Of a DNA stretch of 57,089 nt, positions 17,649-36,009 are shown piece by piece. Source of the DNA: Campylobacteraceae bacterium (GTDB lineage: Bacteria > Campylobacterota > Campylobacteria > Campylobacterales > Sulfurovaceae); NCBI GenBank assembly GCA_026996165.1, contig JALWMP010000062.1, positions 1 through 57,089 of the forward strand. Reading direction: 5' to 3'. The first letter of the stretch is position 1, and every line of letters starts with the position of its first letter. The notes beneath the pieces were generated by a model. The model did no database searches, was not told the DNA's origin, and saw only the letters and a list, made by a program, of their open reading frames with translations. Both the position numbers and the translations under genes were made by a program.

Positions 17649-17707
17649 ATATAAAGTTAAAAACTATATAATTATATAAAATTTAATATTAAAAAGTATC
17701 TTAAAAT

Positions 17708-19876: not shown

Positions 19877-21102
19877 GTAGTAGTGTTTTAGAAGTAAAAA
19901 ATATCTGTAAATCTTTTATTGATTACAGAAGTGAATGGCAAAGAGTCTTTTCTTGGTTTGGAGTTAAAAGTAAAGGTAGCGAAGAGCATAAGATTTTAAA
20001 ACATATTAGTTTCTCTATAGCATCTGGAGAAGCAATAGGTATAGTTGGACAAAATGGTGCAGGAAAGAGTACACTGCTTAAAATTATTACAGGTACATTA
20101 AAGCCCTCTGCTGGAACACTCTCTGTAACAGGAAGAATCTCTGCCATATTAGAGCTAGGAATGGGTTTTGACCCAAACTTAACAGGAAGAGAAAATGTTT
20201 ACCACTCAGCAGGTATTATGGGTTTTACGCATAAGCAGGTAAATGAGGTTATAGATAAAGTTGAATCATTTATTGAGATTGGTAACTACTTTGATGAACC
20301 TATTAGAACTTACTCTAGTGGTATGCAGATGCGAGTAGCATTTGGTGTAGCAACAATGTATAGACCAGAAATCCTCATAGTAGATGAAGCACTCTCTGTA
20401 GGTGATGCCTACTTTCAACATAAAAGTTTTGAAAAGATACGCGAATTTCAAAGAGCAGGAACAACTCTTCTTCTAGTCTCTCATGATAAAGGAGCTATTC
20501 AGGCTATTTGTAATAGAGCTATTTTACTTGAAAAAGGAGCTATTATTAAAGATGGTGATCCTGAAGAGATTATGGATTTTTACAATGCACTTATAGCCCA
20601 AAAGGGGAATTCTATACTAAATCAAATAAAAAAAGAGGATGGTAGAGTAGAGACCATCTCTGGCACAGGTGAAGTAGAGATAGAAAAAATAAAACTCCTA
20701 AATAGTAAAAAGGAGAGTGTTGAGTATATCTCTGTTGGAGAGAGAGTAGAGTTGTACATAGAGGTCAAAGTTAACAAACCAGTACCTCAAATAGTCATAG
20801 GATATATGATAAAAGATAGACTAGGACAACCCATCTTTGGAACAAACACACACCACCATAAAAAAGTTGTAACAAACCCAAAAAAAGATGACAAGCTACT
20901 CTATAGTTTCTCTTTTCCTATGAACTTGGGTATTGGTTCTTACTCCATAACTGTAGCTATTCATGGAGAAGATACACATCTAGCAAATAATTATCAATGG
21001 AGAGACCAAGCACTAATATTTAATGTTATAAACACCTCAAAAGAGGAGTTTGTAGGTTTAGCTTGGTTAGAACAAAAAGTAGAGGTAGAGTATGTCAAAT
21101 AG
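19873..21102 (+). CDS. wzt: O-polysaccharide ABC transporter ATPase with C-terminal carbohydrate-binding domain
   Basis: GQNGAGKST, YSSGMQMR, DEALSVGDAYF, plus a ~160-aa C-terminal beta domain. Confidence 0.93.
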   Translation: MSSSVLEVKNICKSFIDYRSEWQRVFSWFGVKSKGSEEHKILKHISFSIASGEAIGIVGQNGAGKSTLLKIITGTLKPSAGTLSVTGRISAILELGMGFDPNLTGRENVYHSAGIMGFTHKQVNEVIDKVESFIEIGNYFDEPIRTYSSGMQMRVAFGVATMYRPEILIVDEALSVGDAYFQHKSFEKIREFQRAGTTLLLVSHDKGAIQAICNRAILLEKGAIIKDGDPEEIMDFYNALIAQKGNSILNQIKKEDGRVETISGTGEVEIEKIKLLNSKKESVEYISVGERVELYIEVKVNKPVPQIVIGYMIKDRLGQPIFGTNTHHHKKVVTNPKKDDKLLYSFSFPMNLGIGSYSITVAIHGEDTHLANNYQWRDQALIFNVINTSKEEFVGLAWLEQKVEVEYVK

Positions 21103-22333
21103 AGATTTTTATAGAGCTTTTGAAGAAAGATATAGAGGTTCAAGAGAACTTATTAAAGAGAGACTTTTAGTTTATTTACCATTTGTTTTGCCTTTAAAAG
21201 AGTTATATCCTGATGGTATAGCACTAGATATTGGTTGTGGTAGAGGGGAGTGGTTAGAGTTACTTGGTGATAACCAAATAACAGCTAAAGGCATAGATTT
21301 AGATGATGGTATGTTAAAAGCTTCTCATAAACTCAATCTCGATGTTATGCAAGGTGATGGTATAGAGTATCTTAAAAAACAAGATAGTAAAAGCATAACT
21401 ATAATCAGTGCTTTTCATGTAGTTGAGCATATCTCTTTTGAAGAGTTACAGTCTCTAGTAGAGGAGTCTCTTCGTGTTTTAAAACCAGGGGGAATACTAA
21501 TCTTAGAGACACCAAACCCAGAAAACATAAGAGTAGCTACAGAACATTTCTATCTTGACCCAACACACATTAAGCCAATTCCATCTAGTCTATTGGCTTT
21601 TTTACCAGAGTTTTATGGTTTTAGTCGTACAAAGGTACTCAAACTTCAAGAGTCAAAAGAGCTTATAGCTCAAAAGAGCATAAATCTACTGCAACTCTTA
21701 GAGGGGGTCAGCCCTGACTATGCCATAGTTGCTCAAAAAGCTACAACGCAAGATAGTTTAGAAAAGTTTGATGAGGTATTTTCAAAAGATTTTGGACTCT
21801 CTCTAAATTCGCTTGGTGAAAAGTTTGAAAATCGTATATTACACATAGAATTAAAAGCAACTGAAGCTGAGAGAAAAGCAACAGAATCTGAAACAAGAGC
21901 TATTGAGGCAGAAGCAAGAACAGATGAAGCTCTATATCACTATAATGCTATCATAAATAGTAAATCTTGGAAAATTACAAAACCACTTAGATTAGCTGGT
22001 GATTTTATTCGTTGGTTTAAAAGAGGAGTCTACCATTGGGTAACTTTTTCTCCAACAAGTCGTCCAAGACGAGTAGCTAAAAAGATTTTAATTTCACTAA
22101 AGTATTACATACATACAAAACCAAGACTAAAAACAAAACTCTTAAATATCTTAGATAGGTTTCCAAAACTAAAAACAAGACTTAAAAGCATTGGTTCAAC
22201 AGATTTTTCTAACCATAATTTATTAGAAGTAGATATATATACTAACAGTGAAGTAAAACTATCTCCAAAAGCTAAAAAAGTATATAGTGACCTCAAAAAA
22301 GTAATCGATTTACAAAAAGGTAATAAATCATGA
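21092..22333 (+). CDS. SAM-dependent methyltransferase with short coiled coil (WbdD-like chain terminator)
   Basis: FEERYRGS, LDIGCGRGE, HVVEH, LKPGG..ETPNP, heptad repeats, then NSKSWKITKPLR. Confidence 0.85.
   Translation: MSNRDFYRAFEERYRGSRELIKERLLVYLPFVLPLKELYPDGIALDIGCGRGEWLELLGDNQITAKGIDLDDGMLKASHKLNLDVMQGDGIEYLKKQDSKSITIISAFHVVEHISFEELQSLVEESLRVLKPGGILILETPNPENIRVATEHFYLDPTHIKPIPSSLLAFLPEFYGFSRTKVLKLQESKELIAQKSINLLQLLEGVSPDYAIVAQKATTQDSLEKFDEVFSKDFGLSLNSLGEKFENRILHIELKATEAERKATESETRAIEAEARTDEALYHYNAIINSKSWKITKPLRLAGDFIRWFKRGVYHWVTFSPTSRPRRVAKKILISLKYYIHTKPRLKTKLLNILDRFPKLKTRLKSIGSTDFSNHNLLEVDIYTNSEVKLSPKAKKVYSDLKKVIDLQKGNKS
21854..21931 (+). repeat. degenerate 21-nt (7-aa) tandem repeat, about 3.7 units
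   Basis: KATEAER-KATESET-RAIEAEA-RTDEA. DNA aaagcaactgaagctgagaga / aaagcaacagaatctgaaaca / agagctattgaggcagaagca. Confidence 0.7.
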
Positions 22334-25300
22334 GAATAGTTATTGACCTACAAGGTGCACAGAGTGCAAGTAGATACAGAGGTATAGGTAGATACTCTGT
22401 AGCCATATCAAAAGCAATAGTTAAAAATAGTGGTAATCATGAAGTCATTATTGCATTGTCAAATCTTTTTGCAGATACTATTGATGAGATAAAACAAGAG
22501 TTTAAAGAGATTTTACCTCTAAAAAATATAAAAGTTTGGCATGGAGTAGCCCCTGTAAAAGAGTCCGAAGAGCAAAACTATAAAAGAAGAGAAATTAGTG
22601 AACTCTTAAGAGAGTCTTTTTTAAGTAACCTAAAACCAGATATAATATTTATTACAAGTCTCTTTGAGGGTTATGTAGATAATGCAGTTACAAGCATAAA
22701 GAAATATGACAAACATACAAAAGTAGCTGTTACTAGTCATGACCTTATACCATATATCCATCAAGATAAGTATCTATCAAATAGGCTATATAAAGAACAC
22801 TATCTACAAAAGATTGAGTATCTAAAACAAGCAGACTTAATCTTAGGCATCTCAGAAAGCTCTTGCCGTGAAGTAGTAGAACATTTAGGTATTAGTAGAG
22901 AAAAGGTAGTCAATACTTCAGAAGCTGTAGATGAAATCTTTAGACCAAAAGAGCTAACCAAAGAGGAGAAGTCTACACTCTATAAAAGATTTAATATAAT
23001 TAGAAAAACAATAGTTTATGCCCCTGGAGGATTTGACGTTAGAAAAAACTTTGAAAATCTTATTGAAGCCTACTCCATTTTGCCTAAACATATAAAAGAA
23101 AACTATCAACTAGTCATCATTAGTAAAGTAGAACAAGCTGATAAAAAGAGACTTTTAGAGTTTGCAAAATCTAAAGGAGTCAAACAAGATGACCTAATCT
23201 TTACAGGCTATGTTTTGGACAATGAATTAATATTTTTTTATACTCTATGTGACCTCTTTGTTTTTCCATCTATACATGAGGGGTTTGGGTTACCTCTATT
23301 AGAGGCAATGAGTTGTGGTGCAGTTGTTATAGGTTCAAACACAACAAGTATTCCAGAGGTTATAGGGTGCAATGAAGCACTCTTTGACCCCTATGATGTT
23401 AACTCTATATCTAGTAAGATAGCAGAGGTCATTGAAAACAAAGCACTACAACAAAAGCTCTTGGAACATAACAAATCTCAAATCAAAAAGTTTTCGTGGG
23501 ATAATTCTGCTAAAAAGGCTATACAAAGCTTTGAAACTATGTTTGAGAAGACTCTACAAACAAAAAGTTGGAAAGAAAAGTTTCAAAGCTATAAAAAGAA
23601 CTATAATAGACAATTAGAACAAATAGCTAAGCTTTGCAATCTATATAAGCTAGATGAAGAGGAACTCTATGCCATATCTAAAGCCATTGCAAAAAATGAT
23701 GAGGTAGCAGATGAGATTTTAAGAGAGACTCCATTACCTCAAAAGATAACTTGGAGAGTAGAAGGACCATTTGATAGTTCCTATAGTCTTGCACTGTTAA
23801 ATCGTGAAACAGCTTTAGCACTAGATGAGTTAGGTCATGATGTTATACTCCACTCAACAGAAGGACCTGGTGACTTTGACCCTTCACAAGAGTTTTTAGA
23901 CAACAACCCAAAGTTAAACCAACTCTATCAAAAGTCTCTAAACTCCTCTTATAAGAGTGCAGAGGTAACAAGCCGTAACCTCTACCCACCTAGAGTAGAT
24001 GATATGACCTCTCAACTAAACTTACTACATCACTACGCTTGGGAGGAGTCGGGTTTCCCTATGAAGTGGATAGAGAACTTTAACCAACATCTTCAAGGCA
24101 TAACTTGCCTCTCTAAACATGTAGAGAAGATTTTAATAGACAATGGAGTTACTGTACCACTAACCACCTCAGGGTGTGGTGTAGACCATTGGGAAAAGAT
24201 TATACCAGAGACAAACTACAAACTAGAAGACTCAAATTTCCACTTTTTACATGTCTCCTCATGTTTTCCAAGAAAAGGTGTAGATGTTCTACTAAAAGCC
24301 TATGGTAAAGCATTTAGTCGTATAGACAAAGTAACTCTTGTTATTAAAACTTTTTCAAACCCACACAACCAAGTCCATGAGTGGCTAAAAGAGGCAAAAA
24401 AGAGTAATAGCAACTATCCAAAAGTAGTTATTATAGAAGAAGACTTAAGCCAAGAGCAACTAAAAGCACTCTATAACCAATGCGATGTTTTAGTAGCCCC
24501 TAGTCGTGCAGAGGGCTTTGGGCTTCCTCTAGCAGAGGCTATGCTCTCAAATCTTGCAGTTATTGCCACTGGTTGGGGAGGTCAACTTGACTTTTGTAAC
24601 GATGAGACGGCTTGGTTGATTGACTATAAGTTTCTACCTGCACAAACACACTTTGAGCTTTTTGACTCTGCTTGGGCTGAACCCTCTATAGAGCATTTGG
24701 CTCTACTTATGCAACAAGTTTGGCAACTTCCTAAAGAGAAGAGATTAAAAAAGACAAAAAAAGCAAAAGAGCAACTTCTAAAAAGCTTTAAATGGAGAGA
24801 CATCGCCTCAAACCTTGTAGATGCTACTAGAGAGTTTTCCAAAAAGAGTTATACTAAGTCTCCAAAAATAGGTTGGGTAACAACATGGAATACAAAGTGT
24901 GGCATAGCAACCTACTCAGAACATCTCATAAACAATATGTATGAGCCTGTTAGTGTATTGGCATCGCAGACAAATAACCAAACAGCACAAGACAAAAGCA
25001 ATGTCTACCGATGCTGGAGACAAGGAGAAGAGGATAACTTAATAGAGCTTTCAAAAACTATAGAACAACTCAACCTAGATACCATTGTCATACAGTTTAA
25101 CTATGGCTTTTTTAATTTTGAACACTTTAAAGAGTTTTTAGAGGAGCAAACAAAAAAACAAAGAGTTGTTGTTATTACTCTGCACTCCACAAATAATCCA
25201 AAACATGCCCCTAACAAAAAACTAGAGTACCTAGTAGAACACTTTGCAAAATCTAGTCGCATTTTGGTTCATACCTATAACGACCTCAATAGACTCAAAA

Positions 25301-25977
25301 ATCTTAATCTTATAGACAATGTAACACTTTTTCCTCATGGTCTAGTAGATTGGAATGCACAAGTAACACCTACTAGTAATACTACTTTTACCATCGCTAG
25401 TTATGGATTTTTTCTGCCACATAAAGGTCTTTTAGAGCTTATTGAGGCTTTTTCACTCCTTATTAAAAGAGATATAAAAGTAAAACTAAAAATGGTCAAT
25501 GCACTCTATCCAGTACCAGAGTCTCAAACTATAGTCTCTCAAGCAAAAGAACTTATAGAGTCTCTAAAATTAAGTAACTACATAGAGTTACATACCGACT
25601 TTTTACCAGACCAAGAGAGCTTAACACTACTCTCTCAAGCAGATTTAATAGTTTTTCCATACCAAGAGACGGGTGAGTCTTCTAGTGCTGCTGTTCGTTA
25701 TGGCTTAGCAACTAAAAAGCCAGTGGCAGTTACTCCCTTGGCTATTTTTGATGATGTCCAAAAAGCTGTCTTTAGTCTACCTGGAACATCTGCACAAGAT
25801 TTAGCAGATGGTATAGAGGAGTTAATGGTAAATATAAAACAAAATAGTAAACTCATACAAAACAGAGAACAAGATGCCAAAAAGTGGCGAAAATCACACA
25901 GCTACTCACACTTAGGCTCAAAACTTACAAACATACTAATAGCTTTAAAAAAGCAAAAACTCTTAACCAATCCATAG
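22330..25977 (+). CDS. three-domain GT4 glycosyltransferase (WbdA-like polymerase)
   Basis: RGIGRY...EGFGLPLLEAM (domain 1), RKGVD...EGFGLPLAEAM (domain 2), KCGIATY...HKG...ESSSAAVR (domain 3). Confidence 0.85.
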   Translation: MRIVIDLQGAQSASRYRGIGRYSVAISKAIVKNSGNHEVIIALSNLFADTIDEIKQEFKEILPLKNIKVWHGVAPVKESEEQNYKRREISELLRESFLSNLKPDIIFITSLFEGYVDNAVTSIKKYDKHTKVAVTSHDLIPYIHQDKYLSNRLYKEHYLQKIEYLKQADLILGISESSCREVVEHLGISREKVVNTSEAVDEIFRPKELTKEEKSTLYKRFNIIRKTIVYAPGGFDVRKNFENLIEAYSILPKHIKENYQLVIISKVEQADKKRLLEFAKSKGVKQDDLIFTGYVLDNELIFFYTLCDLFVFPSIHEGFGLPLLEAMSCGAVVIGSNTTSIPEVIGCNEALFDPYDVNSISSKIAEVIENKALQQKLLEHNKSQIKKFSWDNSAKKAIQSFETMFEKTLQTKSWKEKFQSYKKNYNRQLEQIAKLCNLYKLDEEELYAISKAIAKNDEVADEILRETPLPQKITWRVEGPFDSSYSLALLNRETALALDELGHDVILHSTEGPGDFDPSQEFLDNNPKLNQLYQKSLNSSYKSAEVTSRNLYPPRVDDMTSQLNLLHHYAWEESGFPMKWIENFNQHLQGITCLSKHVEKILIDNGVTVPLTTSGCGVDHWEKIIPETNYKLEDSNFHFLHVSSCFPRKGVDVLLKAYGKAFSRIDKVTLVIKTFSNPHNQVHEWLKEAKKSNSNYPKVVIIEEDLSQEQLKALYNQCDVLVAPSRAEGFGLPLAEAMLSNLAVIATGWGGQLDFCNDETAWLIDYKFLPAQTHFELFDSAWAEPSIEHLALLMQQVWQLPKEKRLKKTKKAKEQLLKSFKWRDIASNLVDATREFSKKSYTKSPKIGWVTTWNTKCGIATYSEHLINNMYEPVSVLASQTNNQTAQDKSNVYRCWRQGEEDNLIELSKTIEQLNLDTIVIQFNYGFFNFEHFKEFLEEQTKKQRVVVITLHSTNNPKHAPNKKLEYLVEHFAKSSRILVHTYNDLNRLKNLNLIDNVTLFPHGLVDWNAQVTPTSNTTFTIASYGFFLPHKGLLELIEAFSLLIKRDIKVKLKMVNALYPVPESQTIVSQAKELIESLKLSNYIELHTDFLPDQESLTLLSQADLIVFPYQETGESSSAAVRYGLATKKPVAVTPLAIFDDVQKAVFSLPGTSAQDLADGIEELMVNIKQNSKLIQNREQDAKKWRKSHSYSHLGSKLTNILIALKKQKLLTNP

Positions 25978-25992
25978 AGTAGTAGAGAAAGC

Positions 25993-26952
25993 ATGTTTGG
26001 TTATTTACGGTTTGTTTTAGCTATATTAGTTATGCTTTCACATCTTGATATTCGCTTTTTTACCCTAAATCAAGGGGTATTTGCTGTTACAATATTTTAT
26101 ATGTTAGCTGGGTATGTAGTATCTTATCTATATACCTCTGTAATTCCAAATGGAAAGTACAAAATACTACTTTTTTATAAAGATAGAATAAAAAGAATAT
26201 TTCCTCTATATCTATATATTATTAGTTTAACTATAGTTTTTCTACTGTTAACTAACTATGGAAATCCACACTTTACTCCTCTAAAACTTATATATAATAT
26301 AACTATTATTCCTCTAAATTACTATATGTACATAGATAGTACTATACTTACAAACCCCTCTTGGTGTCTAATTCCTCCTGCGTGGTCACTTGGAACAGAG
26401 CTTCAAGCATATATTTTGTTACCTTTTGCCATAATCTCACTTAAATTTAGATATTTTTTTATTTTTTTATCTATAATTATTTATACTTTAGCAAATTTGA
26501 CACTTTTACACCCTGATTATTTTGGTTATAGGTTTATTGTAGGGGTCTTTTTTATCTTTTTAATAGGCGTTTCTATTCGAGAGTCCAAATATAAACTTTT
26601 AACTATAATATGGATTTTTGTTCTAATACTCATTCTCATACTAATATATTTAGATTTAGAGAAGATAGCTTATGCAAGAGAGACATCACTAGGAATTTTA
26701 GTTGGTATACCCTTAATACACATATTATCTAAAATAAAAAGAAAATTTCTATTTAACTCTCTATTAGGTTCTATCTCTTATGCTATTTTTTTAAGTCATT
26801 TCCTATCTATATGGATAATAGAGGCTTTTTGGGGTAAAAAAGAGACTATTTTAATATTAATTTTAACGATTTTCATTTCTTTTAGTGGAGTATTTGTCGA
26901 AGAATATATAAAAAAATTAAAAAAAAGTATAAAAAAAATACAGTTTAAATAA
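25993..26952 (+). CDS. acyltransferase-3 family membrane O-acyltransferase
   Basis: LRFVLAILVMLSH, FY..RIKRIFP, AWSLGTE, GSISYAIFLSH. Confidence 0.85.
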   Translation: MFGYLRFVLAILVMLSHLDIRFFTLNQGVFAVTIFYMLAGYVVSYLYTSVIPNGKYKILLFYKDRIKRIFPLYLYIISLTIVFLLLTNYGNPHFTPLKLIYNITIIPLNYYMYIDSTILTNPSWCLIPPAWSLGTELQAYILLPFAIISLKFRYFFIFLSIIIYTLANLTLLHPDYFGYRFIVGVFFIFLIGVSIRESKYKLLTIIWIFVLILILILIYLDLEKIAYARETSLGILVGIPLIHILSKIKRKFLFNSLLGSISYAIFLSHFLSIWIIEAFWGKKETILILILTIFISFSGVFVEEYIKKLKKSIKKIQFK

Positions 26953-27058: not shown

Positions 27059-30000
27059 ATGGCATTAACAAAAACAGAGGTTTCAAAACTATATGTCGCG
27101 ATTTTTAATCGTGCATCAGAAGGTAATGGAAACACATATTGGCAAGATCAAGGGGATTTAGCAGAAGTAGCTACAAAAATGTTGGCTACACCAGATGCGG
27201 CAAGTTACTTTGGAGATAGTTTAAATGATGATAAAGCATTTATAGAGTGGATTTATAAAAATACATTAAATAAAACTTATGCAGATGATGCCTCAGGTAT
27301 CGACTACTGGGTTTCAGAGTTAGCAAGTGGTAAGACAAGAGGTCAAGTTGTAGCAGATTTAGTGACAGCAGCAACAGACCCTGCAAATGCAGGACCAGCA
27401 CAAGATCAATTTCATAATAGAGTAACAGTTTCTGACTACGTAGCAGATCATGTACCAGAAGTTCCTGAAGATTATAAGACTGCTTTAGGTTTTGATGGAG
27501 ACTTAGTTGTTACTAATCTTGGTCAAACTGTTATAGATTCAATAAAATATGTTGATCAAACATTGGCTGCAGGGGAAACTTTTAAACTTACTACAGATGT
27601 AGATGTTCCTGAATTAACAGATAAAAGTGATACTATTATAGCTGAATCTAGTTCAGTTCTTGGTCCTGATGATAAAATTATTGATACAAGTGTTAAAGAC
27701 CATGATGTTATGAATTTAACAGTTCAAGCTGACACACCAGCATTTACTGCACTTAATATTGAAGAGATTAATGTAACTTTAGAAACAATGGGTGGAAATA
27801 CTATTGATGCTTCAAATATTACTGGAAGTACTATATCTGTAGCTGCTGATCCAGCTCAAATTGGTTTTACAGGTGCTGCAACAATAGCTAATTTAGGTGA
27901 TAACAATGCTGTAGCAGGTGATGGTATTACAGATTTCACAGTAAATGGTGTAAAAGGTGGTCTTATAGATACAGGTTCGGCAACCTCTCTTACTACAGCT
28001 TCAGCTGCCGCAACAGATAGCCTTAATCTTAAAATTAATGGAGATGTATCTTTAACTGCAACTGCACATAAAGATTTAAATGTAGAGACAACTGCTGATG
28101 CAACTCTTACACTTGGTGGTACAATCTTCTCAGGTGATGGTGTAATTACAGGTAAAGGAGATTTAACTGTTAAAACTGCAACATCTACTTTTGATACTGC
28201 TAATGATGCAAAAACATTAGATAATCAAGGTACAGGAAAATTGGCAATTGAGTTAACTGATAGTGCTGTAGGTGTTGACCTTACAGGTGTAGATGCTAAT
28301 GATGTAATTACAGATGTTGCATTTACTCAAAATATTGAGTTTACAAATACGCTTGATGTTACAGCTAAAGCTACAGCAAACACTATGACTTTAACAGATG
28401 CAACACCAGCAGGTACAGGTGGTAGTGCAGGAACTCAGGCAAATATTCACTTAACAAAAGCAGGAACTTTAGCAACTGATTCATATACTTTTGTTGATGT
28501 AGATGAAGCATCTATTGAAGCTCAACAAGGTGGTGGAATTGCACAAATTGATACTGGTAGTGCAAACCTTACATTAAATACAGCAAAAGACTTAACTCTT
28601 ACAAACTTAATTGCTTCAGGACAAGGTGTTGTTGTGGATGCAGCATCAGCTGGTAAACTTACTATTACAAATATGGAAGCATCAGCTCTAAATGCAAAAG
28701 GATTTACAAAAGATCTTACTGTAACAGAAGCTGAAATTGCTGATACTCATACCTCAGGAGCAAATACAGATGCAACAGCTAGTCAAATAACTGTATTAGG
28801 TGGAACAGCTAAAAACTCTATTACTCTTGCTACTCAAACAGCAGCTGCAACAGTTGTAACACAAGACGATAAAGATACTATTACAGCTGTAAATACAACT
28901 GGAAAACTTACTATTGATTCTGCAGGTGGTGATGATACAGTAAGTGCTATTGCTATGACAACATCTGTAGCACAAATTGATTTAGGTGCAGGAAAAGATA
29001 CACTTACAGTTCAAAATGCTGATGCTACTGGTGATGCTACTGTAAATGCTGGTGCAGATGATGATACAGTTCTTGTTCTTGATACAACTGCTGGTAAAAT
29101 GGTCGTTAATGGTGATGCTGGTAATGATATTGTTGATTTACAAGCTAAAATAACAGGTGGTGCTAATGTTGGTGGTGGAAAACTAGCTGCTACAGCAGAT
29201 GTTACTGTAAATGGTGCTGATGGTAATGATACTGTTAAAATCAATGCAGCTACTGCTGATACAGCTACAATTACTATTGATGGTGGTGATGGTACAGATA
29301 TTGTTGAAGTAACAAAAGATGCAGACTTTACAAATACAACTCTAACTCTTTCAACAATTGAAAACTTAAAAATTGATACTGCTGCTACTTTTACAGATGA
29401 TCAATTAAATGATCAAACATTTGCCGTTACTTCAGGTACAGCTGCTGTTGATATTCTTACTGTTAATCTTAATGCTTCTACTGCAACAGATAGTGAAAAT
29501 ACAACAAACTTAAGTACATTAGACTTCTCTGCTTCTAGTTCAACAGAAGTTGAATATGTAAATATTAATGCTACTGCAAGTTTAAGTGATGATATTATCA
29601 AAGGTGCTCATAATTCTACAAATGTAATTGATCTTGGTGCTGCTTCTGGTAAAGAGACAGTTCAACTATTTGCAGATGCTATTGGTACAACTATTGATAA
29701 CTTACAAACAGGTGCTACACAACCTGATGTAACATCATCTATGTTAACAGGAATAGATACAACAAAAACTACTTTTGATGTAGCAGTAATTAATCATTTT
29801 GAAACAGCAGATGATTCATTAATCCTTGGTGATGCTGCAACTTCAACAAACTATAAAGCAATTTCTGTTGATGCATTTAATGGTTCAGCAGCACCTGATG
29901 CAGGGGTTGAAGAGTACTTAGCCAATGCTATAGAGGGTGCAAATACAGAACTTGGTAATGATAGCAACTTAGAGTATGTTTATGTTTACAATTCAGATGC

Positions 30001-30151
30001 AACTACTGCAAATCCAAATACAAAAGATGCTTGGTTATTGTGGGATAGTGATGGTAACCATAGTATAGATGCTGCAATACTTCTAGTTGGTGTTGAACCA
30101 GATCCATCAGATGGTTCAGGTTTTGCTGCTTCTGATATTGTTGCAGGATAA
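27059..30151 (+). CDS. S-layer protein (SapA/RsaA-like, DUF4214-type N-terminus, T1SS substrate)
   Basis: No signal peptide. LYVAIFNRA...YW anchor domain, Ala/Thr/Asp-rich and Cys-free, RTX-like turns (LGAGKDTL, GDAGNDIV, GADGNDTV, GGDGTDIV), strong SD aaggag, same island as sapCDEF. Confidence 0.88.
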   Translation: MALTKTEVSKLYVAIFNRASEGNGNTYWQDQGDLAEVATKMLATPDAASYFGDSLNDDKAFIEWIYKNTLNKTYADDASGIDYWVSELASGKTRGQVVADLVTAATDPANAGPAQDQFHNRVTVSDYVADHVPEVPEDYKTALGFDGDLVVTNLGQTVIDSIKYVDQTLAAGETFKLTTDVDVPELTDKSDTIIAESSSVLGPDDKIIDTSVKDHDVMNLTVQADTPAFTALNIEEINVTLETMGGNTIDASNITGSTISVAADPAQIGFTGAATIANLGDNNAVAGDGITDFTVNGVKGGLIDTGSATSLTTASAAATDSLNLKINGDVSLTATAHKDLNVETTADATLTLGGTIFSGDGVITGKGDLTVKTATSTFDTANDAKTLDNQGTGKLAIELTDSAVGVDLTGVDANDVITDVAFTQNIEFTNTLDVTAKATANTMTLTDATPAGTGGSAGTQANIHLTKAGTLATDSYTFVDVDEASIEAQQGGGIAQIDTGSANLTLNTAKDLTLTNLIASGQGVVVDAASAGKLTITNMEASALNAKGFTKDLTVTEAEIADTHTSGANTDATASQITVLGGTAKNSITLATQTAAATVVTQDDKDTITAVNTTGKLTIDSAGGDDTVSAIAMTTSVAQIDLGAGKDTLTVQNADATGDATVNAGADDDTVLVLDTTAGKMVVNGDAGNDIVDLQAKITGGANVGGGKLAATADVTVNGADGNDTVKINAATADTATITIDGGDGTDIVEVTKDADFTNTTLTLSTIENLKIDTAATFTDDQLNDQTFAVTSGTAAVDILTVNLNASTATDSENTTNLSTLDFSASSSTEVEYVNINATASLSDDIIKGAHNSTNVIDLGAASGKETVQLFADAIGTTIDNLQTGATQPDVTSSMLTGIDTTKTTFDVAVINHFETADDSLILGDAATSTNYKAISVDAFNGSAAPDAGVEEYLANAIEGANTELGNDSNLEYVYVYNSDATTANPNTKDAWLLWDSDGNHSIDAAILLVGVEPDPSDGSGFAASDIVAG

Positions 30152-30161
30152 TCTTTTTTAG

Positions 30162-30221
30162 TTCCACATCATAAGATGTGGAATTTATTGTATTGGAGTA
30201 ATAGAACTGCTTACTCCAATA
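30162..30221 (+). terminator. tandem hairpins after the S-layer gene
   Basis: ttccacatc-ataa-gatgtggaa (30162-30183) and tattggagtaa-N9-ttactccaata (30191-30221). Confidence 0.7.
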
Positions 30222-30308
30222 TATAAATAATATACTTCTTTTTATTCCCTATTTTAATCTAACTATTTTTTGCTATAATTGCTTTAATTAAATCTATTTA
30301 AAAGGGAA

Positions 30309-32291
30309 ATGGTGGAGAGTAAACTTGAAACTGCAATATATCTAAAAGAGTTAGCAAACTTTAAACAGGCTATATTGTTATTAAAAAAATATATAAAAAA
30401 AAATCCAACCAATATAGAAGTTTATGGACATTTAATACATGCTTTAACATTGAATAATCAAATTAAAGAGGCATGGCATTATCTTAATAAAGCAGAAAAA
30501 CTTCAAAAAAACAATAGCATAATCTTGTCATATAAGGCTAGACTATTATTAAAAGAGAGAAAACTAGAAGAGGCTTTTAATACTATACAGTTTGCATATA
30601 ATCAAGATAAAAATTCAGGGTTTATACTTTTAACATTTGCAAATATACTTAGTTCGATGGGTGCAACAGATAAAGCAAAAGAGGCTCTTAATTTAGCTAT
30701 TAGAGTTGATCCAAAGTTAGCTGAGGCTTATGCTCTTCGTGCTATATATTTTAATAAAGAAGGAGATAGAGCAAAAGCTTTATTATATGCAAAAAAAGCT
30801 CTTTTACTTAAACCTCACTTAAAAGTTATAGAATCAATAACAGAAGCAAATAATCTTTTAGAAGCAATATCTCTTATTAAAGAGGTATTAAAATCTATTC
30901 CAGCTAAAAAAAATATATTGCTTCTTAATAAACTAGCAGACTATCAATATCAGGTAAATGATAAAGAGAGTGCAATGGATACATTGACTCAAATAATAAA
31001 TCGTGTTCCAAATTCAGTTGATGTACGAATAAAAATAGCCAATATATTAACAGAAAAAGGAGAGTATAATAGTGCCATAAAACACTATAATATAGCAAAA
31101 AAATATGCTCCAAATAATTCTCGAATATTTAATAACTTAGGATTATGTTATAAGCAAAAAGGGGATGCTGAACCTTCTGAAAAAAATTTTAAAAAAGCTT
31201 TGAGTTTAAATCCAAATGATTATCATATATACTCAAATTTAGCTCTTTTGTTTATAGATGAAAACAGATATGAAGATGCTATAAAGGTTATAAATAGTGC
31301 CTTAAAAATAAATCCCGAAGAGATGGATTTATATATGACATTAGGACTCTGTTATATTGGGTTATATAGATATTCACAAGCCATGGAAGTTGCTAAAAAA
31401 GCACTTAATATAAATCCAAATGCAAGTAAAATACATCATCTTGTAGGTGAAATATATATGAAACAGGGAGAGTTAAAAAAAGCTTTAGATAGTTTACACA
31501 CCTCTTTGGAGTGCTATTTACAAGATTTAGAAAATGCAAAAATTATTAAACCACCAGTTATTTCTAGATATATGAATACTGAGAATGCGAAAATAGTTTT
31601 AAAAAAAGTTTACAAAGTATTTAAAGAAAAAAATATAAAAATCTTTCTATCTTCTGGAACATTGCTGGGAATAGTTAGAGATGGTGATTTACTACCTTAT
31701 GACAAAGATATGGATATTGGTGTAGATTGGGATGTTTCAAGAGAGTTAGTAGAAGAGACACTAAAAGAGATTGGTTTTAAAATACAATATTCATCAGCTA
31801 AAGATAGAGAGTGGTTAGTAACAGGTGCAGATAGAGAGTTAGGAGTTACTGTAGATTTTTTCTTTTATAAAAAATTACAAAATAAAACGGTTTATGGTTT
31901 CCATGGAGAACCATACCCTATTTTGTGGGAGTTTCCTCATTTTGAACTATCTACCATTGAGTATAATGGAGATAAATGGCTTATCCCTTCACCTTATGAG
32001 GTCTATTGTGAGACTATGTATGGTGAAAATTGGAGAACTCCTATTTCAAATTATGATACTATGTTATCTTCTTCAAATCTTGTAAAAGAGTCAGAAACTT
32101 TAGCTATTTGTTATGGTATTGCTAGATTAATAGATAATATAAAAAGAAGTAATTATAAAAAAGCAAAAGGTTACTGCGAACAACTATTAGCTATACACAA
32201 TGCACCAATTATCCATAAACTAATGAAGAAAATGGAGACTATTTTAGATGACTATGAAAAAACTATTAGTTTAAAAAGAGATGGTGACTAA
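30309..32291 (+). CDS. TPR-repeat protein with C-terminal LicD/fukutin-family phosphotransferase domain
   Basis: Many TPRs in aa 1-~400. GTLLGIVRDGDLLPYDKDMDIG, VDFFF and YGENW motifs. Confidence 0.85.
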   Translation: MVESKLETAIYLKELANFKQAILLLKKYIKKNPTNIEVYGHLIHALTLNNQIKEAWHYLNKAEKLQKNNSIILSYKARLLLKERKLEEAFNTIQFAYNQDKNSGFILLTFANILSSMGATDKAKEALNLAIRVDPKLAEAYALRAIYFNKEGDRAKALLYAKKALLLKPHLKVIESITEANNLLEAISLIKEVLKSIPAKKNILLLNKLADYQYQVNDKESAMDTLTQIINRVPNSVDVRIKIANILTEKGEYNSAIKHYNIAKKYAPNNSRIFNNLGLCYKQKGDAEPSEKNFKKALSLNPNDYHIYSNLALLFIDENRYEDAIKVINSALKINPEEMDLYMTLGLCYIGLYRYSQAMEVAKKALNINPNASKIHHLVGEIYMKQGELKKALDSLHTSLECYLQDLENAKIIKPPVISRYMNTENAKIVLKKVYKVFKEKNIKIFLSSGTLLGIVRDGDLLPYDKDMDIGVDWDVSRELVEETLKEIGFKIQYSSAKDREWLVTGADRELGVTVDFFFYKKLQNKTVYGFHGEPYPILWEFPHFELSTIEYNGDKWLIPSPYEVYCETMYGENWRTPISNYDTMLSSSNLVKESETLAICYGIARLIDNIKRSNYKKAKGYCEQLLAIHNAPIIHKLMKKMETILDDYEKTISLKRDGD

Positions 32292-33350
32292 ACTATTATT
32301 TGCTCGACTCTCTTTTTTTAAGCTTATTTGAAGTTTAATTAACTCTTCTTTGTCAATAGTATAACTACTAAACTCTGTAGAGATATTTAACTCTTTTAAA
32401 ATATCTTTTAACTTATTTGATGAGAGTTCCCCAAAAATTTCTGTTAAAGCATTATCTATAAAATCATATTTACCAATAATATTATCTATCAATAAAGGCA
32501 GAGTAAAACTACAAGCTATGCCATGAGGTATGCCTTTGTATGTGGTTATATAGTAACTCATGGCATGAGCTAAAGCTGTTTGAGTATTTGAAAAGGCCAA
32601 TCCTGCATACATAGAAGCTTTTAAAACTTTATCTCTATAGTTAAGATTTTCTAAATTATTTGAGAGTGCTACAAGATTTTCTACAATCAATTTAGCTGAT
32701 TTTATAGCATAATTTATCGTTATTTCATTCGCATTTTTATTCCAAATAGACTCTAAAGCATGAGATAGAGTATCTAATCCTGTTTGAATGGTTATATCTT
32801 TTGGAACTGATAGAGTTAAAGTAGAGTCATAAATAGCAATTTCACTAAACAAATTAGTCAGATGAAGTGAGTATTTTTTCTTTTCACTCATATCCCAAAT
32901 AGTAGCCCAAGGTGTTATTTCACTTCCTGTTCCTGCTGTTGTAGGAACAGATATAATAGGTATGAGTCTATAATCTTTTTTTGGTAGTTTACCTTTTATA
33001 ATATCTTCTACAAACTGATACTCTTTTTTTTGATTGTAAACTGAAAAGAATTTTGAAGCATCTATAACACTTCCACCACCAATAGCCAATATAAGTTCAA
33101 ACTCTATCTTGTGTACTTTACTATAAATAGCCTCTAAGTCTTTAAACTCAGGGTGTGATTTTACCTCTGATATAACATTAACAATACTATTTGTTAAAGC
33201 TTTTATCTTATCTACTAAACCCCTTTTTACAAATCCAGCAGAGGTTATCAATAGAGTTTTTCTGCCATCTATATACTTATCAATATTTTCTAACTCATTA
33301 TTGCCATAAACTATTTTAGTAGGCATCTGATATGTAAATCTTTTATTCAT
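32271..33350 (-). CDS. iron-containing alcohol dehydrogenase, probable phosphonoacetaldehyde reductase
   Basis: IGGGSVID, VPTTAGTGSE, DTLSHALES, HAMSY, PHG. Translationally coupled to ppd. Confidence 0.85.
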   Translation of the reverse strand: MNKRFTYQMPTKIVYGNNELENIDKYIDGRKTLLITSAGFVKRGLVDKIKALTNSIVNVISEVKSHPEFKDLEAIYSKVHKIEFELILAIGGGSVIDASKFFSVYNQKKEYQFVEDIIKGKLPKKDYRLIPIISVPTTAGTGSEITPWATIWDMSEKKKYSLHLTNLFSEIAIYDSTLTLSVPKDITIQTGLDTLSHALESIWNKNANEITINYAIKSAKLIVENLVALSNNLENLNYRDKVLKASMYAGLAFSNTQTALAHAMSYYITTYKGIPHGIACSFTLPLLIDNIIGKYDFIDNALTEIFGELSSNKLKDILKELNISTEFSSYTIDKEELIKLQISLKKESRANNSLVTISF

Positions 33351-34390
33351 TTTAGTCTATTTACCTTTACTTTTTCTACTGGTGGTCTTGGAGTCTCATT
33401 ATCTACTCCACACTTAATATGCAGAAAATTTAGCCCTTTTTTAGGACTATTTAAAAACTCTTCAAAATCTTTTAATATATCTAAACCTGCACCTTTTGCA
33501 ATAGAGTTATAATCAATATGATTTTGATAGCTATTTTGTCCACCTGTTGATTTATTCTGCTCATTATCAAATAATATATAAGTTAAATTTATGTTTTTGT
33601 ATCTACCTGCTGTAGTCAATCCTCCCATGTGCATAACAAACTCAGCATCTCCACCACAAACAATCACTTTTTTACCTGCTAAACTTGCACCAAGCCCAAG
33701 ACTCAAAGCACCTCCCATATTTCCTACCATATAGAAGTTATTTGTATTTGGCATAAAACTATATATCTCTCTTGCTGTATGTCCTGTTGTTCCTATAAAA
33801 AGTGTATCTGTATCTTTAAAATTTTTGTTTAATCTCTCTAAAAACTCACTTCTAGGTAGATAACTTGTCATATCTAATTTATGTTCATTATCTAACTCTA
33901 CTTTTGAAAAAGTATCTTTTTGTAAAATTGCTATAGTTTCTGAGTTATTGCATAAATTTATTTGGGATATTGTATTTTCTATATTTTTGTTATCTAAAAT
34001 AGTATAGTCATAACCATAAGCATTTATAAGAGCAGGCAGCTTTGTTGCTAAATGTTGATGCTGTATTTCACTATCACCATCTTTATATGTTCTCCAACTA
34101 GTGATGATAGGAAAGGTAACTCCATAAGGTTTTAAAAGACTTGTGATACAACTTCCCATGTTTGTCAGTCCAGAAGATTGCACTATAACTATAGGTTTTT
34201 TACCAGCCATTTTTAAACCAGCTGCTATCGAACAAGCTACTGCTTCACTTGCACTTGGAATATACTCTAGTTTATCACTATTTATAACTGAATTTATAAG
34301 ATTTTTAGCAAAACTACATGGAACTACACATATATGGGTATATCCTTCTTTAATCAATTTTTCTACAAAAATATTAGTATCTAATGCCAT
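33347..34390 (-). CDS. ppd: phosphonopyruvate decarboxylase
   Basis: VPCS, SEAVA, QSSGLTN, EIQH, GTTGHTARE, FYMVGNMG, ThDP motif GDAEFVM...DN, STGGQ. Confidence 0.88.
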   Translation of the reverse strand: MALDTNIFVEKLIKEGYTHICVVPCSFAKNLINSVINSDKLEYIPSASEAVACSIAAGLKMAGKKPIVIVQSSGLTNMGSCITSLLKPYGVTFPIITSWRTYKDGDSEIQHQHLATKLPALINAYGYDYTILDNKNIENTISQINLCNNSETIAILQKDTFSKVELDNEHKLDMTSYLPRSEFLERLNKNFKDTDTLFIGTTGHTAREIYSFMPNTNNFYMVGNMGGALSLGLGASLAGKKVIVCGGDAEFVMHMGGLTTAGRYKNINLTYILFDNEQNKSTGGQNSYQNHIDYNSIAKGAGLDILKDFEEFLNSPKKGLNFLHIKCGVDNETPRPPVEKVKVNRLK

Positions 34391-35679
34391 TATTTTGTTC
34401 CTGGGATTAAGTCTAATATCTCTTCAATTGGAAGTAATTCCTTTTCTACTTCATAGCTTCTATCATTTTTTAAAATAGATTCTGCAACTTTTATCATACC
34501 AGGATATGCTGCTCTTAGCATATGATTGGCATATATTACAATATTGACTCCAGCTTCTCCTAGCTCTTTAGCCGTAATCTGATTATAACTTGTTGGAACT
34601 GCAACAATAGGTATCTTTTTATCATACTTTCTTAAAATATCACAAAATTCTAAAATCTCATCGGGAGATTTTTTTCTTGAGTGTATCATGATACCATCAC
34701 TACCTGCTTGAATATAAGCTTTTGCTCTTGTTATAGCATCTTCCATACCTTTTTCCAAAATTAAACTCTCTATTCGTGAAATAATCATAAAATCATCGGT
34801 TATTTGTGCTCTTTTACCTATTTTAATTTTATTACAAAAATTTTCTATACTATCTTGTGTTTGTAAAACTTCATTTCCAAAAAGAGAGTTTTTCTTTAAT
34901 CCTGTTTTATCTTCGATAATAACAGCACTTACCCCTGTTCTCTCAAGTGTTCTAACAGTAAAAACAAAATGTTCAGCTATCCCACCTGTATCTGCATCAT
35001 ATATCATAGGTTTTGTTGTAACTTCAAAAATCTCATTTATTGTATTTATTCTTGCACTTACATCTACTGCCTCTATATCTGGTTTCCCTTTTGATGTAGA
35101 ATCTGTTAAAGAGCTTGACCACATGGCATCATACTCTATGTTGTTACTTTTTATATTTTCTACTATTAAACCACTTAAGGCATTGTGTACTTCCATTACT
35201 CGCACTATAGGTTTAGATTTTATTAACCTTCTTAATCTTGCTCTTCTTATGTCTGGTGTTGTTCCTATCTCTTTTAAAGAATTATTAAGTTGAGTTGAAG
35301 AGATACCCTTAGTATATTCTACCTCTACAAGTTTTCCACCCCATTTTGCTAAAGTATCTATAACTTGTTGTCTGGTTTTTGCTTGAACTCCCTCTCTCCA
35401 ATCATCACCATGCACAACATAATCTGGTTTAAGTTTTTCTAAATTTGGTCTATAGTCCAGAGTCTCTTGTGGAACAACTTTTGATACACCTTTAATATTT
35501 TCTACTACAGCTTTTCGTTGTTCATAAGTCATATACGGTAGTCGTTTATAACTTGCTATTGCTTTATCTGTCAAAAGTCCAATAGTAATTTCACCAAGTT
35601 TTATAGCTTCTTTAATTATGTTCATATGTCCAGGGTGAATAAGGTCTGCACTCATACCAATATAGACTTTTTTATTCAT
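34390..35679 (-). CDS. pepM: phosphoenolpyruvate mutase with N-terminal cytidylyltransferase-like domain
   Basis: [10 protein letters not shown] fits the PepM signature EDKx5NS. N-terminal DLIHPGH, VHGDDW and ISST (HIGH-family NTP transferase). Confidence 0.95.
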
Positions 35680-36009
35680 ACTAATACCTTTTAATTTTAA
35701 TTGAAAGGATTATATCAAAACTTTTCTCATTTAATACAAGACATAATAGTTTATAAATATTTTATCTTTTTAATTCATTTCTTATATAAATTATTAAATA
35801 AAATAATTAATTATATTTTAAATTATTACATAGTATTTAATTTAATTAAACATATTTTTATCAAATATTTAATAATTTTAGCTATTTTACAATTCAGTTT
35901 TTAAAACTAATTATAAATAAAGAATAATTTTAAGCTTAATATATTAATATATATATTATCTTGGATTATTTATGTAGTTTAAGTATAAATTTATTATAAA
36001 GGAGAGAGT
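35680..36009. promoter_or_regulatory. very AT-rich divergent promoter region
   Basis: Lies between the divergent starts of pepM and the 36010 gene, with SD sequences at both ends. Individual boxes cannot be resolved. Confidence 0.5.

What the first reader, a model, noticed from the sequence alone, without database searches (positions are those of the whole stretch)
27059..35679. Phosphonate (2-HEP) synthesis plus a TPR-LicD transferase beside an S-layer gene: candidate phosphonylated S-layer system
Seen: pepM with EDKx5NS fused to a HIGH-type cytidylyltransferase domain, ppd and an Fe-ADH form a translationally coupled operon. It converges on, and overlaps by 21 bp, a TPR-LicD gene that directly follows the S-layer gene. 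No AEP transaminase or methylphosphonate synthase is in the window. Established: PepM, Ppd and a group III Fe-ADH give 2-hydroxyethylphosphonate, and LicD/fukutin enzymes transfer phospho-alcohols from cytidine-nucleotide donors to surface acceptors. Inference: CMP-HEP is made and transferred to the S-layer protein or its anchoring glycan, giving a hydrolysis-resistant C-P coat. I know of no description of this in Campylobacterota S-layers.
Basis: partly seen in the sequence, partly recalled or inferred. Interest (0 to 1): 0.85.

Follow-up and report, generated by a model that had tools for sequence, protein, structure and literature searches.

The report
Phosphonate-tagging enzyme beside S-layer gene
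A vent bacterium carries, right behind its predicted surface-coat (S-layer) gene, three genes predicted to make an activated carbon-phosphorus compound and a transfer enzyme that likely attaches it to the coat protein, which would be a first defined route to a phosphonate-tagged bacterial protein.

Summary
Observation confirmed. The cytidylyltransferase-PepM, Ppd and Fe-ADH genes are intact. The cytidylyltransferase domain is about 71% identical to Fom1's HEP cytidylyltransferase, so CMP-2-hydroxyethylphosphonate is very likely made. That part is known chemistry. The facing gene encodes a cytoplasmic TPR superhelix plus a LicD/FKRP-fold domain with intact catalytic aspartates. New here: related TPR-LicD genes lie beside S-layer, SapC, RTX or flagellin genes in 11 of 30 loci (0 of 89 for stand-alone LicD) and rarely beside polysaccharide genes (2 of 30 versus 47 of 89). 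They come with interchangeable cytidylyl-donor genes, and a complete relative has two TPR-sulfotransferases in the same post-S-layer slot. Best reading (0.45): the enzyme tags the S-layer protein with HEP before type I export. Against: the S-layer + TPR-LicD + pepM trio was found in no other genome, and pepM lies beside TPR-LicD in only 2 of 30 loci. The closest pepM cassettes sit in polysaccharide loci. The one characterised TPR-LicD I found in print (Cps7C) acts on a capsule linker. A predicted rhamnan cluster lies next door. The link to the acceptor would be a P-O ester, so the 'hydrolysis-resistant coat' is overstated.

The parts
34390..35679 (-). Cytidylyltransferase-PepM fusion (CT residues 1-138, PepM about 149-428)
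   Evidence: TIGR02320 415 bits over cut-off, PF01467; CT domain E 2.8e-63 to Fom1 CyTase 5X3D, 95 of 134 identical by hand count; motifs [20 protein letters not shown]
33347..34390 (-). Phosphonopyruvate decarboxylase (predicted; divergent clade)
   Evidence: TIGR03297 best hit but under cut-off; TPP motif intact and 62-72% identical to ppd genes beside pepM in relatives
32271..33350 (-). Group III Fe-alcohol dehydrogenase, predicted phosphonoacetaldehyde reductase
   Evidence: TIGR03405 best hit, 345.8 vs 423.7; GGGS and metal ligands D193, H197, H262, H276 present
30309..32291 (+). TPR-LicD transferase: TPR superhelix (about 1-410), LicD/FKRP-fold domain (about 420-590), helical tail
   Evidence: PF04991 and TPR families; model pLDDT 94.8; domain fold best match FKRP, Z 14.3, rmsd 3.1 over 159 residues; D465, D467, D469 invariant and D516 near-invariant in 46 homologues; no hydrophobic or signal segment
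27059..30151 (+). Predicted S-layer protein (type I secreted), candidate acceptor; 219 Ser+Thr
   Evidence: DUF4214 N-terminus; Thr/Ala/Asp-rich, no Cys, two RTX-like motifs, no signal peptide; rank 27 of 978 for high-expression codon use; no solved relative
30160..30221 (+). Terminator-like hairpin (30160-30185) and a second inverted repeat (30191-30221) after the S-layer gene
   Evidence: second repeat read directly from the sequence
30271..30279 (+). Extended -10 box TGCTATAAT, likely promoter of TPR-LicD
   Evidence: sequence; matches the tgnTAtaAT consensus of C. fetus (PMC3887049, passage); function untested
35709..35717 (-). Extended -10 box TGATATAAT, likely promoter of the pepM operon
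   Evidence: sequence; function untested
5222..11005 (+). Context: Y1-SapC fusion and type I secretion genes (PrtD, HlyD, TolC types), predicted S-layer exporter
   Evidence: PF07277, TIGR01842, TIGR01843 over cut-off; TIGR01844 under cut-off
11009..26952 (+). Context: ABC-dependent polysaccharide cluster (gmd, rmd-like, GT4s, WbaP, O-antigen ligase, manC, wzm/wzt, methyltransferase, three-domain GT, acyltransferase); predicted D-rhamnan, the rival acceptor
   Evidence: its distal genes are conserved beside S-layer orthologues in relatives that lack TPR-LicD and pepM

Best explanation
The three minus-strand genes are predicted to turn PEP into CMP-activated 2-hydroxyethylphosphonate (HEP), and the facing cytoplasmic TPR-LicD enzyme likely transfers HEP onto hydroxyls of the neighbouring predicted S-layer protein before its type I export. 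Steps: PEP to phosphonopyruvate (PepM), to phosphonoacetaldehyde (Ppd), to HEP (Fe-ADH), to CMP-HEP (N-terminal domain of PepM); all four are inferred from close homology and intact motifs (about 0.9). The LicD/FKRP domain would attack the phosphonate phosphorus, release CMP and leave a +108 Da phosphonate ester (inferred, about 0.7 that CMP-HEP is its donor). The TPR superhelix would bind the unfolded cargo as FlmG's TPR binds flagellin; the acceptor would be Ser/Thr or a short O-glycan on the protein (inferred, about 0.6-0.65 given the former). The module is an add-on: it lies just behind an otherwise conserved S-layer locus, probably as a rare surface variant against phage or grazers (untested).
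For: CT domain about 71% identical to Fom1 CyTase (PMC6697681 passages name Fom1 as the CMP-HEP-forming domain). Fused-CT identity is 57-83% in 18 loci with an ADH versus 48-52% in 5 without, regardless of PepM identity. No AEP transaminase over cut-off in the genome: best 113 bits vs 400.8 and 173 vs 360.8. The operon has no transferase of its own, while 3 of the 4 closest cassettes have LicD or TagF-like genes just after the ADH. No TagF-like gene in the genome, and its two other LicDs each have their own cytidylyltransferase. Both partners are rare (close TPR-LicD 1 of 250, pepM 6 of 250), so chance adjacency is unlikely. TPR-LicD-type loci: exported-protein neighbour within 4 kb in 11 of 30, polysaccharide genes in 2 of 30, nucleotidyltransferase in 16 of 30; stand-alone LicD 0, 47 and 51 of 89. 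Examples: flgK-flgL-fliW-TPR-LicD (L011), flagellin (L034, L231), S-layer with sapC (L013, L023, L036, L096, L097). Two later-found loci both have an adjacent cytidylyltransferase, one also an S-layer-like gene 4.6 kb away. In complete genome G156 two TPR-sulfotransferases sit between the orthologous S-layer gene and sapC. TPR-LicD shares a cluster with CT-pepM, ppd and ADH in two Helicobacteraceae genomes (L232, L234).
Against: No second S-layer + TPR-LicD + pepM locus found. Only 5 of 25 genomes with TPR-LicD have pepM at all, and the nearest relative with context (L091, 49% in the domain) has a methyltransferase beside it, not pepM. 19 of 30 TPR-LicD loci have no exported-protein neighbour. 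The four closest cassettes (81-83% PepM identity) are all in Wzx/Wzy polysaccharide loci. Cps7C, a characterised TPR + FKRP-like enzyme, acts on a capsule linker (PMC11666461, passages), and AU tests do not reject grouping the window's clade with capsule-type or stand-alone LicDs (p 0.22 and 0.15). The genes converge rather than share an operon. The genome is 86.6% complete. Counted loci are not independent and come from capped scans.
Confidence: 0.45

Rival explanations
1. TPR-LicD uses CMP-HEP but decorates a polysaccharide: the lipid-linked predicted D-rhamnan or LPS made by the adjacent Wzm/Wzt cluster, on the cytoplasmic face, possibly as short poly(HEP) chains in the manner of Cps7C.
For: Polysaccharide cluster 3.4 kb upstream. 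Closest pepM cassettes are in polysaccharide loci. Cps7C is TPR + FKRP-like and polymerises glycerol phosphate on a glycolipid (PMC11666461). In C. fetus type B, gmd (wcbK) lies beside a sap gene and its LPS binds the S-layer (PMC3887049).
Against: Polysaccharide genes near only 2 of 30 TPR-LicD loci by my classifier (at least one more was missed, L100). The capsule-type group sits across a 92/95 branch from the window's group. No TagF-like polymerase in the genome. The cluster's distal genes are conserved in relatives lacking the module.
Confidence: 0.25
2. The two units are unlinked neighbours in a variable surface island. TPR-LicD modifies the S-layer with another CDP donor (for example CDP-methylerythritol or CDP-glycerol made elsewhere), and CMP-HEP goes to one of the other LicDs or to a gene missing from the assembly.
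For: Convergent orientation with separate promoters. 20 of 25 TPR-LicD genomes lack pepM. Several S-layer-linked TPR-LicD loci have no adjacent donor gene (L014, L023, L097). Two more LicDs in the genome.
Against: Both units are rare and sit together with a 21-nt overlap. The other LicDs have their own donor modules. TPR-LicD shares a cluster with the HEP genes in a second lineage.
Confidence: 0.2
3. HEP goes to a lipid or is released as a small molecule, or the acceptor is another exported protein such as the 1359-aa DUF4214 protein on the other side of pepM.
For: Fom1 uses CMP-HEP in a small-molecule pathway (PMC6697681). The second DUF4214 gene is divergent from pepM.
Against: No tailoring, export or CDP-alcohol phosphatidyltransferase genes beside the operon. 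The second DUF4214 protein has a Sec-type N-terminus and a less S-layer-like make-up.
Confidence: 0.1

Closest known systems
Fom1 / Fom2 / FomC early fosfomycin steps and the phosphonyl-tailoring (Pnt) logic (PMC6697681; PMC8942020; passages read; Fom2 and FomC names recalled)
   Same: CT-PepM fusion about 71% identical to the Fom1 CT domain; Ppd and Fe-ADH; predicted CMP-HEP; LicD-like transferase proposed as the next step. PF01467-PepM fusions are 23.6% of PepMs and HEP clusters 8.5% of neighbourhoods, including H. cinaedi and C. jejuni.
   Different: No fosfomycin tailoring genes. The candidate transferase is TPR-fused and sits behind a predicted S-layer gene rather than in a glycan operon.
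Cps7C capsule transition transferase of Actinobacillus pleuropneumoniae (PMC11666461, passages read)
   Same: N-terminal TPR plus FKRP-like nucleotidyltransferase domain, catalytic aspartates, cytidylyl-activated donor, cytoplasmic.
   Different: Cps7C is 378 aa, uses CDP-glycerol and works with a TagF-like polymerase in a group 2 capsule cluster. Here 660 aa with a much longer TPR, no TagF-like gene in the genome, and a group of homologues that mostly avoids polysaccharide loci.
FlmG flagellin glycosyltransferase of Caulobacter (PMC7591256, passages read)
   Same: Cytoplasmic TPR + transferase; TPR binds an exported structural protein; CMP-activated donor (recalled); TPR-LicD homologues lie in flagellin and flgK-flgL-fliW loci.
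   Different: FlmG has a GT-B domain and transfers pseudaminic acid. Here the catalytic domain is LicD/FKRP-fold, the predicted donor is a phosphonate, and no flagellin gene was found in this genome.
FtaABCD phospho-N-methylthreonine modification of C. difficile flagellin glycan (bioRxiv 10.64898/2026.02.12.704994, passages read)
   Same: CDP-activated head group moved onto a glycosylated structural protein in the cytoplasm; locus L028 has a similar phosphatase / nucleotidyltransferase / methyltransferase set before TPR-LicD.
   Different: FtaD is TagF-like, not LicD; the donor is a phosphate, not a phosphonate.
Phosphonoglycoproteins proposed for Prochlorococcus SB (PMC8931226, passages and section 11 read)
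   Same: Phosphonate on a surface protein fraction; rare, variable trait proposed to act against grazers and phage.
   Different: That model uses lipid-linked glycan and a periplasmic O-oligosaccharyltransferase; neither carrier protein nor transferase was identified. Here both are candidate single genes and the route would be cytoplasmic.
Campylobacter fetus sap locus (PMC3887049, passages read)
   Same: sapC, type I secretion, S-layer gene and gmd-dependent LPS in one region.
   Different: No phosphonate or TPR-LicD genes mentioned in the passages seen; SapC here is fused to a degenerate Y1-transposase domain.

Membership tests
PEP mutase (TIGR02320), Fom1-type CT fusion | EDKx5NS motif and score over the family cut-off | tested here: met
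   [10 protein letters not shown] at 256; 415 bits vs 319.55
PEP mutase (TIGR02320), Fom1-type CT fusion | N-terminal PF01467 domain closest to the Fom1 HEP cytidylyltransferase | tested here: met
   5X3D E 2.8e-63, next best 6.4e-17; 95 of 134 identical
PEP mutase (TIGR02320), Fom1-type CT fusion | Forms CMP-HEP from CTP and HEP | not testable with these tools
   needs an enzyme assay; indirect support
Phosphonopyruvate decarboxylase (TIGR03297) | Score over the curated cut-off | tested here: not met
   192.9 vs 312.5 bits, though the best hit; TPP motif intact and coupled to pepM, so it likely works as Ppd
Phosphonate-linked Fe-ADH (TIGR03405, PhpC-like) | Score over cut-off; Fe ligands; position after ppd | tested here: inconclusive
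   345.8 vs 423.7 but far above other ADH families (183.6 next); ligands present
LicD / fukutin / FKRP phosphotransferases | PF04991 over cut-off; nucleotidyltransferase fold with DxD and a third Asp | tested here: met
   29.2 vs 22.6; FKRP top in Foldseek (E 1.9e-7) and VIA-align (Z 14.3, rmsd 3.1, 159 aligned); D467, D469, D516 conserved
CpsC-type capsule transition transferase | TPR + FKRP-like domain | tested here: met
CpsC-type capsule transition transferase | Encoded with a TagF-like polymerase in a group 2 capsule cluster | tested here: not met
   no PF04464 match in the 86.6%-complete genome; no such cluster in the window
CpsC-type capsule transition transferase | Same clade as capsule-locus TPR-LicDs | tested here: inconclusive
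   separated by a 92/95 branch but AU p 0.219; Cps7C itself was not in the tree
FlmG-type TPR glycosyltransferase | GT-B catalytic domain | tested here: not met
   domain is nucleotidyltransferase-fold
FlmG-type TPR glycosyltransferase | TPR binds the exported protein substrate | not tested
Type I-secreted S-layer (C. fetus Sap-like) | SapC and type I exporter nearby; no signal peptide; conserved N-terminal anchor; abundant expression | tested here: met
Type I-secreted S-layer (C. fetus Sap-like) | Forms a crystalline lattice on the cell | not testable with these tools
   needs electron microscopy; no solved relative by sequence
O-oligosaccharyltransferase-type phosphonoglycoprotein system (Prochlorococcus model) | pepM within 10 kb of a PglL-like transferase | tested here: inconclusive
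   a Wzy_C protein lies about 17 kb away; ligase versus protein transferase not resolved

The most novel reading that the evidence does not exclude
TPR-LicD proteins are an undescribed family of cytoplasmic protein-tagging enzymes that put interchangeable cytidylyl-activated head groups on S-layers, flagellins and RTX proteins before export, and this one attaches 2-hydroxyethylphosphonate directly to Ser/Thr of the S-layer: direct protein phosphonylation, possibly as poly(HEP) chains.
Probability: 0.25. Interest if true: 0.9.

Novelty: new variant of a known kind. Interest (0 to 1): 0.7.

Why it matters
The enzyme that moves an activated phosphonate onto a macromolecule is the step left open in the phosphonate-tailoring pathway (PMC6697681, abstract and passages), and for the marine phosphonoglycoproteins neither carrier nor transferase was named (PMC8931226, passages). 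A 2019 review states that direct phosphonylation of proteins is not known (PMC6429109, passage). This locus offers donor enzymes, one soluble transferase and one candidate acceptor within 8.6 kb, so the question can be tested with five genes. The wider TPR-LicD group points to an overlooked class of surface-protein modifications beside S-layer and flagellin genes.

Tried and rejected
Second copy of the trio: not found in 61 relatives, 250 family genomes, a 401-genome order sample, the best 80 of 141 genome loci and best 80 of at least 507 metagenome loci, or 55 + 151 genomes of two gammaproteobacterial families (searched for TPR-LicD only). The four closest proteins (67-83% in the domain) lie on short metagenome contigs whose DNA I could not obtain; one search gave no context. 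Longer fused forms: none scored among 1138 candidates, weak evidence. AEP route: the genome's best class V aminotransferase is 27% identical to true AEP transaminases and under cut-off, rejected. Methylphosphonate synthase was checked in the window only, not genome-wide. C-P lyase PhnJ and flagellin not found in the 86.6%-complete genome. Assembly artefact rejected. Low-share runs gave only short pieces and no bridge of use. No RNA holder listed. ENC codon measure was too noisy; replaced by a reference-gene score. Whole-protein fold search returned only TPR proteins. AU tests did not separate the clades. Literature: searches listed no paper on TPR-LicD enzymes acting on S-layers or flagellins, or on phosphonate-modified type I-secreted S-layers. 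One search was swamped by one ambiguous term, the library lacks most subscription papers, and I opened no supplements (Fig. S1c of PMC8942020 could show Campylobacterota clusters with TPR-LicD).


Full report
Observation. The five ORFs, their coupling and the 21-nt convergent overlap are as described. PepM passes its family cut-off; Ppd and the Fe-ADH hit the expected families best but under cut-off. Catalytic motifs are intact in all three. Contigs from runs of two further studies bridge S-layer to TPR-LicD and TPR-LicD to pepM, so the layout is real; the holders with a recorded habitat are hydrothermal-vent metagenomes. A hairpin and an extended -10 box separate the S-layer gene from TPR-LicD, and pepM has its own box, so three transcription units are likely.

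Donor. The N-terminal domain of PepM matches the Fom1 cytidylyltransferase structure 5X3D at E 2.8e-63, 95 of 134 residues identical by hand count; the next family is at 6e-17. Rice et al. name Fom1 as the CMP-HEP-forming domain and count such fusions in 23.6% of PepMs (PMC6697681, passages). Across fetched loci the fused domain is 57-83% identical to ours in 18 loci with an ADH and 48-52% in 5 loci without one, even where PepM identity runs the other way. The genome has no AEP transaminase over cut-off. CMP-HEP is therefore very likely, and it is known chemistry: HEP clusters are reported for H. cinaedi and C. jejuni (PMC8942020, first part and passages).

Where the cassette comes from. pepM is over cut-off in 6 of 250 family genomes, ours included. 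The four closest cassettes (81-83%; G038, G082, G112, G245) lie in Wzx/Wzy polysaccharide loci; three have a stand-alone LicD or TagF-like gene just after the ADH. Here the operon has no such gene, the genome has no TagF-like gene, and its two other LicDs (C179, C187) each sit with their own cytidylyltransferase. The only transferase beside the operon is TPR-LicD.

The transferase. It has no membrane or signal segment. The model is confident (pLDDT 94.8): helical repeats to about residue 410, then an alpha/beta domain. Folded alone, that domain matches FKRP best (Foldseek E 1.9e-7; VIA-align Z 14.3, rmsd 3.1, 159 residues), with antibiotic nucleotidyltransferases close behind (Z 13.0, 12.6). 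GTLLG, DxDxD and D516 are conserved in 46 homologues. A close form occurs in 1 of 250 family genomes, ours; the other seven matching genomes give 29-35% identity. SapC is over cut-off in 26 of 250 and the S-layer N-terminus matches in 10 of 250, so the module is an add-on to a commoner S-layer locus. Among the S-layer orthologues fetched, most contigs end at the gene; G018 has unrelated genes after it, and complete genome G156 has two TPR-sulfotransferases between S-layer and sapC, the only full-length (640-aa) sulfotransferase matches in that genome.

Neighbour test. From two capped scans (best 80 of 141; best 80 of at least 507) and genome searches I classed LicD proteins by domain length and score, set aside six capsule-locus proteins, and dropped eight loci (two copies of the window's own gene, six near-duplicates). 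Of 38 TPR-LicD-type loci 30 had at least 4 kb of flank: 11 had an S-layer-like, SapC, DUF4214, RTX or flagellar gene within 4 kb, 2 had polysaccharide genes, 16 a nucleotidyltransferase, 2 pepM. Of 123 stand-alone LicD loci 89 had the flank: 0, 47, 51 and 17. The six capsule-type loci all had polysaccharide genes and none an exported-protein gene. Ten of the 30 are Helicobacteraceae-type and none of those has an exported neighbour; among the other 20 it is 11 (hand count). The eleven loci come from ten genomes or contigs, eight of them named to eight different families of alpha-, beta- and gammaproteobacteria. Fisher p-values are small but overstate, since kin are not independent and the control taxa differ. 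My classifier used BLAST against session proteins and a composition rule, and missed at least a GT4 in L100 and a nucleotidyltransferase in L028. Two loci found afterwards both had an adjacent HIGH-type cytidylyltransferase; one had an S-layer-like gene 4.6 kb upstream plus GT4 and GT2 genes, the other a 1514-aa protein of unknown kind. Donor genes vary: IspD-like with or without a RuBisCO-like protein, TagD-like, MobA-like. Only 5 of 25 TPR-LicD genomes have pepM; in two Helicobacteraceae a TPR-LicD paralogue is in the same cluster as CT-pepM, ppd and ADH, without an S-layer gene.

Tree. In a 54-row tree the 34 TPR-LicD rows stand apart from capsule-type and stand-alone LicDs on a 92/95 branch; the window's protein forms a 100/99 group with three metagenome proteins and L091 (larger quick tree). 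AU tests do not reject joining that group to either other set (p 0.22, 0.15).

Mechanism. Seen or strongly inferred: an intact HEP pathway, a Fom1-like activating domain, a cytoplasmic FKRP-fold transferase, and a highly expressed (rank 27 of 978), Ser/Thr-rich (219 residues) protein with type I export genes nearby. Inferred: TPR-LicD takes CMP-HEP, and its acceptor is the S-layer protein. Type I cargo bypasses the periplasm (own knowledge), so a cytoplasmic TPR enzyme is the kind that could reach it, as FlmG reaches flagellin through its TPR domain (PMC7591256, passages). Several homologous loci (L013, L023, L036, L231) show no glycosyltransferase within 4 kb, which favours direct transfer to Ser/Thr, but L278 does, and the C. 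difficile Fta system shows transfer onto a protein-bound sugar (bioRxiv 10.64898/2026.02.12.704994, passages). The main rival is a polysaccharide acceptor: Cps7C has the same two-domain plan and polymerises glycerol phosphate on a capsule linker (PMC11666461, passages), and the predicted rhamnan cluster is adjacent, as gmd-dependent LPS is in C. fetus (PMC3887049, passages). Because HEP has a free hydroxyl, a Cps7C-like enzyme could also build poly(HEP) chains (speculation).

Novelty. The donor pathway is known; TPR + FKRP-like enzymes are known from capsules; phosphonate on a surface protein fraction has been reported for Prochlorococcus without a named enzyme or carrier (PMC8931226, passages and section 11). 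Nine searches listed nothing on TPR-LicD beside S-layer or flagellin genes, or on a phosphonate-modified type I S-layer; a review says direct protein phosphonylation is not known (PMC6429109, passage). Earlier scan notes describe a TPR-LicD in a glycan locus and a LicD with a peptide-recognition domain beside a surface mini-protein; these are unchecked leads, one leaning to the rival and one to my reading. Verdict: a new variant of phosphonate tailoring, seen once, inside an apparently undescribed group of transferases linked to exported proteins. Confidence in the S-layer acceptor 0.45; interest 0.7.

Noticed in passing
window 5222-6622: SapC is fused behind a Y1 (IS200/REP-type) transposase-like domain whose HUH motif is degenerate. 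The roughly 470-aa fusion is conserved at about 50% identity in many family members, which suggests a domesticated domain; an internal Met could also start SapC alone.
   Followed up: partly
L246:14354-18207 (G156): Two tandem TPR-sulfotransferases lie between the orthologous S-layer gene and sapC/type I secretion genes: candidate sulfated S-layer.
   Followed up: partly
L012, L021, L022, L032, L100: TPR-LicD + IspD-like cytidylyltransferase + RuBisCO-like protein recur as a unit in several proteobacterial families; the RuBisCO-like protein may make the polyol phosphate donor.
   Followed up: no
L028:7148-11284: HAD phosphatase, MobA-like nucleotidyltransferase, Asp/Glu racemase-like and methyltransferase genes precede TPR-LicD, resembling the CDP-N-methylthreonine module of C. 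difficile flagellin with LicD in place of the TagF-like enzyme.
   Followed up: no
L232:261-12342 and L234:1873-13186: Helicobacteraceae cluster with a stand-alone cytidylyltransferase, asparagine-synthase-like and radical SAM genes, TPR-LicD, methyltransferase, CT-pepM, an O-methyl-phosphoramidate-transferase-like gene (L234), ppd and Fe-ADH.
   Followed up: partly
L238:2270-5521 (G000 C187) and L239:13162-19887 (G000 C179): Two further LicD modules in this genome: CT-Gfo/Idh/MocA fusion + class V aminotransferase (not an AEP transaminase) + LicD; and a glycan locus with IspD/TarI-like, LicD and TagD-like genes beside an oligosaccharyltransferase-like gene.
   Followed up: partly
window 36010-40089: Second DUF4214 protein (1359 aa) with a Sec-type N-terminus, Ig and TSP3 domains, divergent from pepM; similar signal-bearing DUF4214 proteins occur in relatives.
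   Followed up: no
L224:152-3133 (G056): TPR-LicD fused to a cyanophycin-synthetase-like ATP-grasp domain, beside a cytidylyltransferase and a DUF4214-like gene; the same genome has a second TPR-LicD + CT near two flagellin genes (L231).
   Followed up: no
L046, L048, L051, L052, L056, L067, L114, L123, L154: Conserved marine cassette: ABC exporter, roughly 400-aa LicD protein, CT-pepM, ppd, Fe-ADH (Marinimicrobia where named).
   Followed up: no
L225-L230: Campylobacterales capsule loci carry CT + roughly 400-aa LicD-like + TPR/TagF-like polymerase, the CpsB-CpsC-CpsD plan.
   Followed up: partly
window 40434-41204 and 3753-5084: A REP-associated tyrosine transposase, with far higher summed contig depth in vent runs than its neighbours, and a Fic-domain gene flank the surface island.
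   Followed up: no
L008:1363-9962 (G007): A same-genus genome has CT-pepM, ppd, CT-AEP transaminase and LicD within an LPS-core-like gene run: an AEP version of surface phosphonylation.
   Followed up: no
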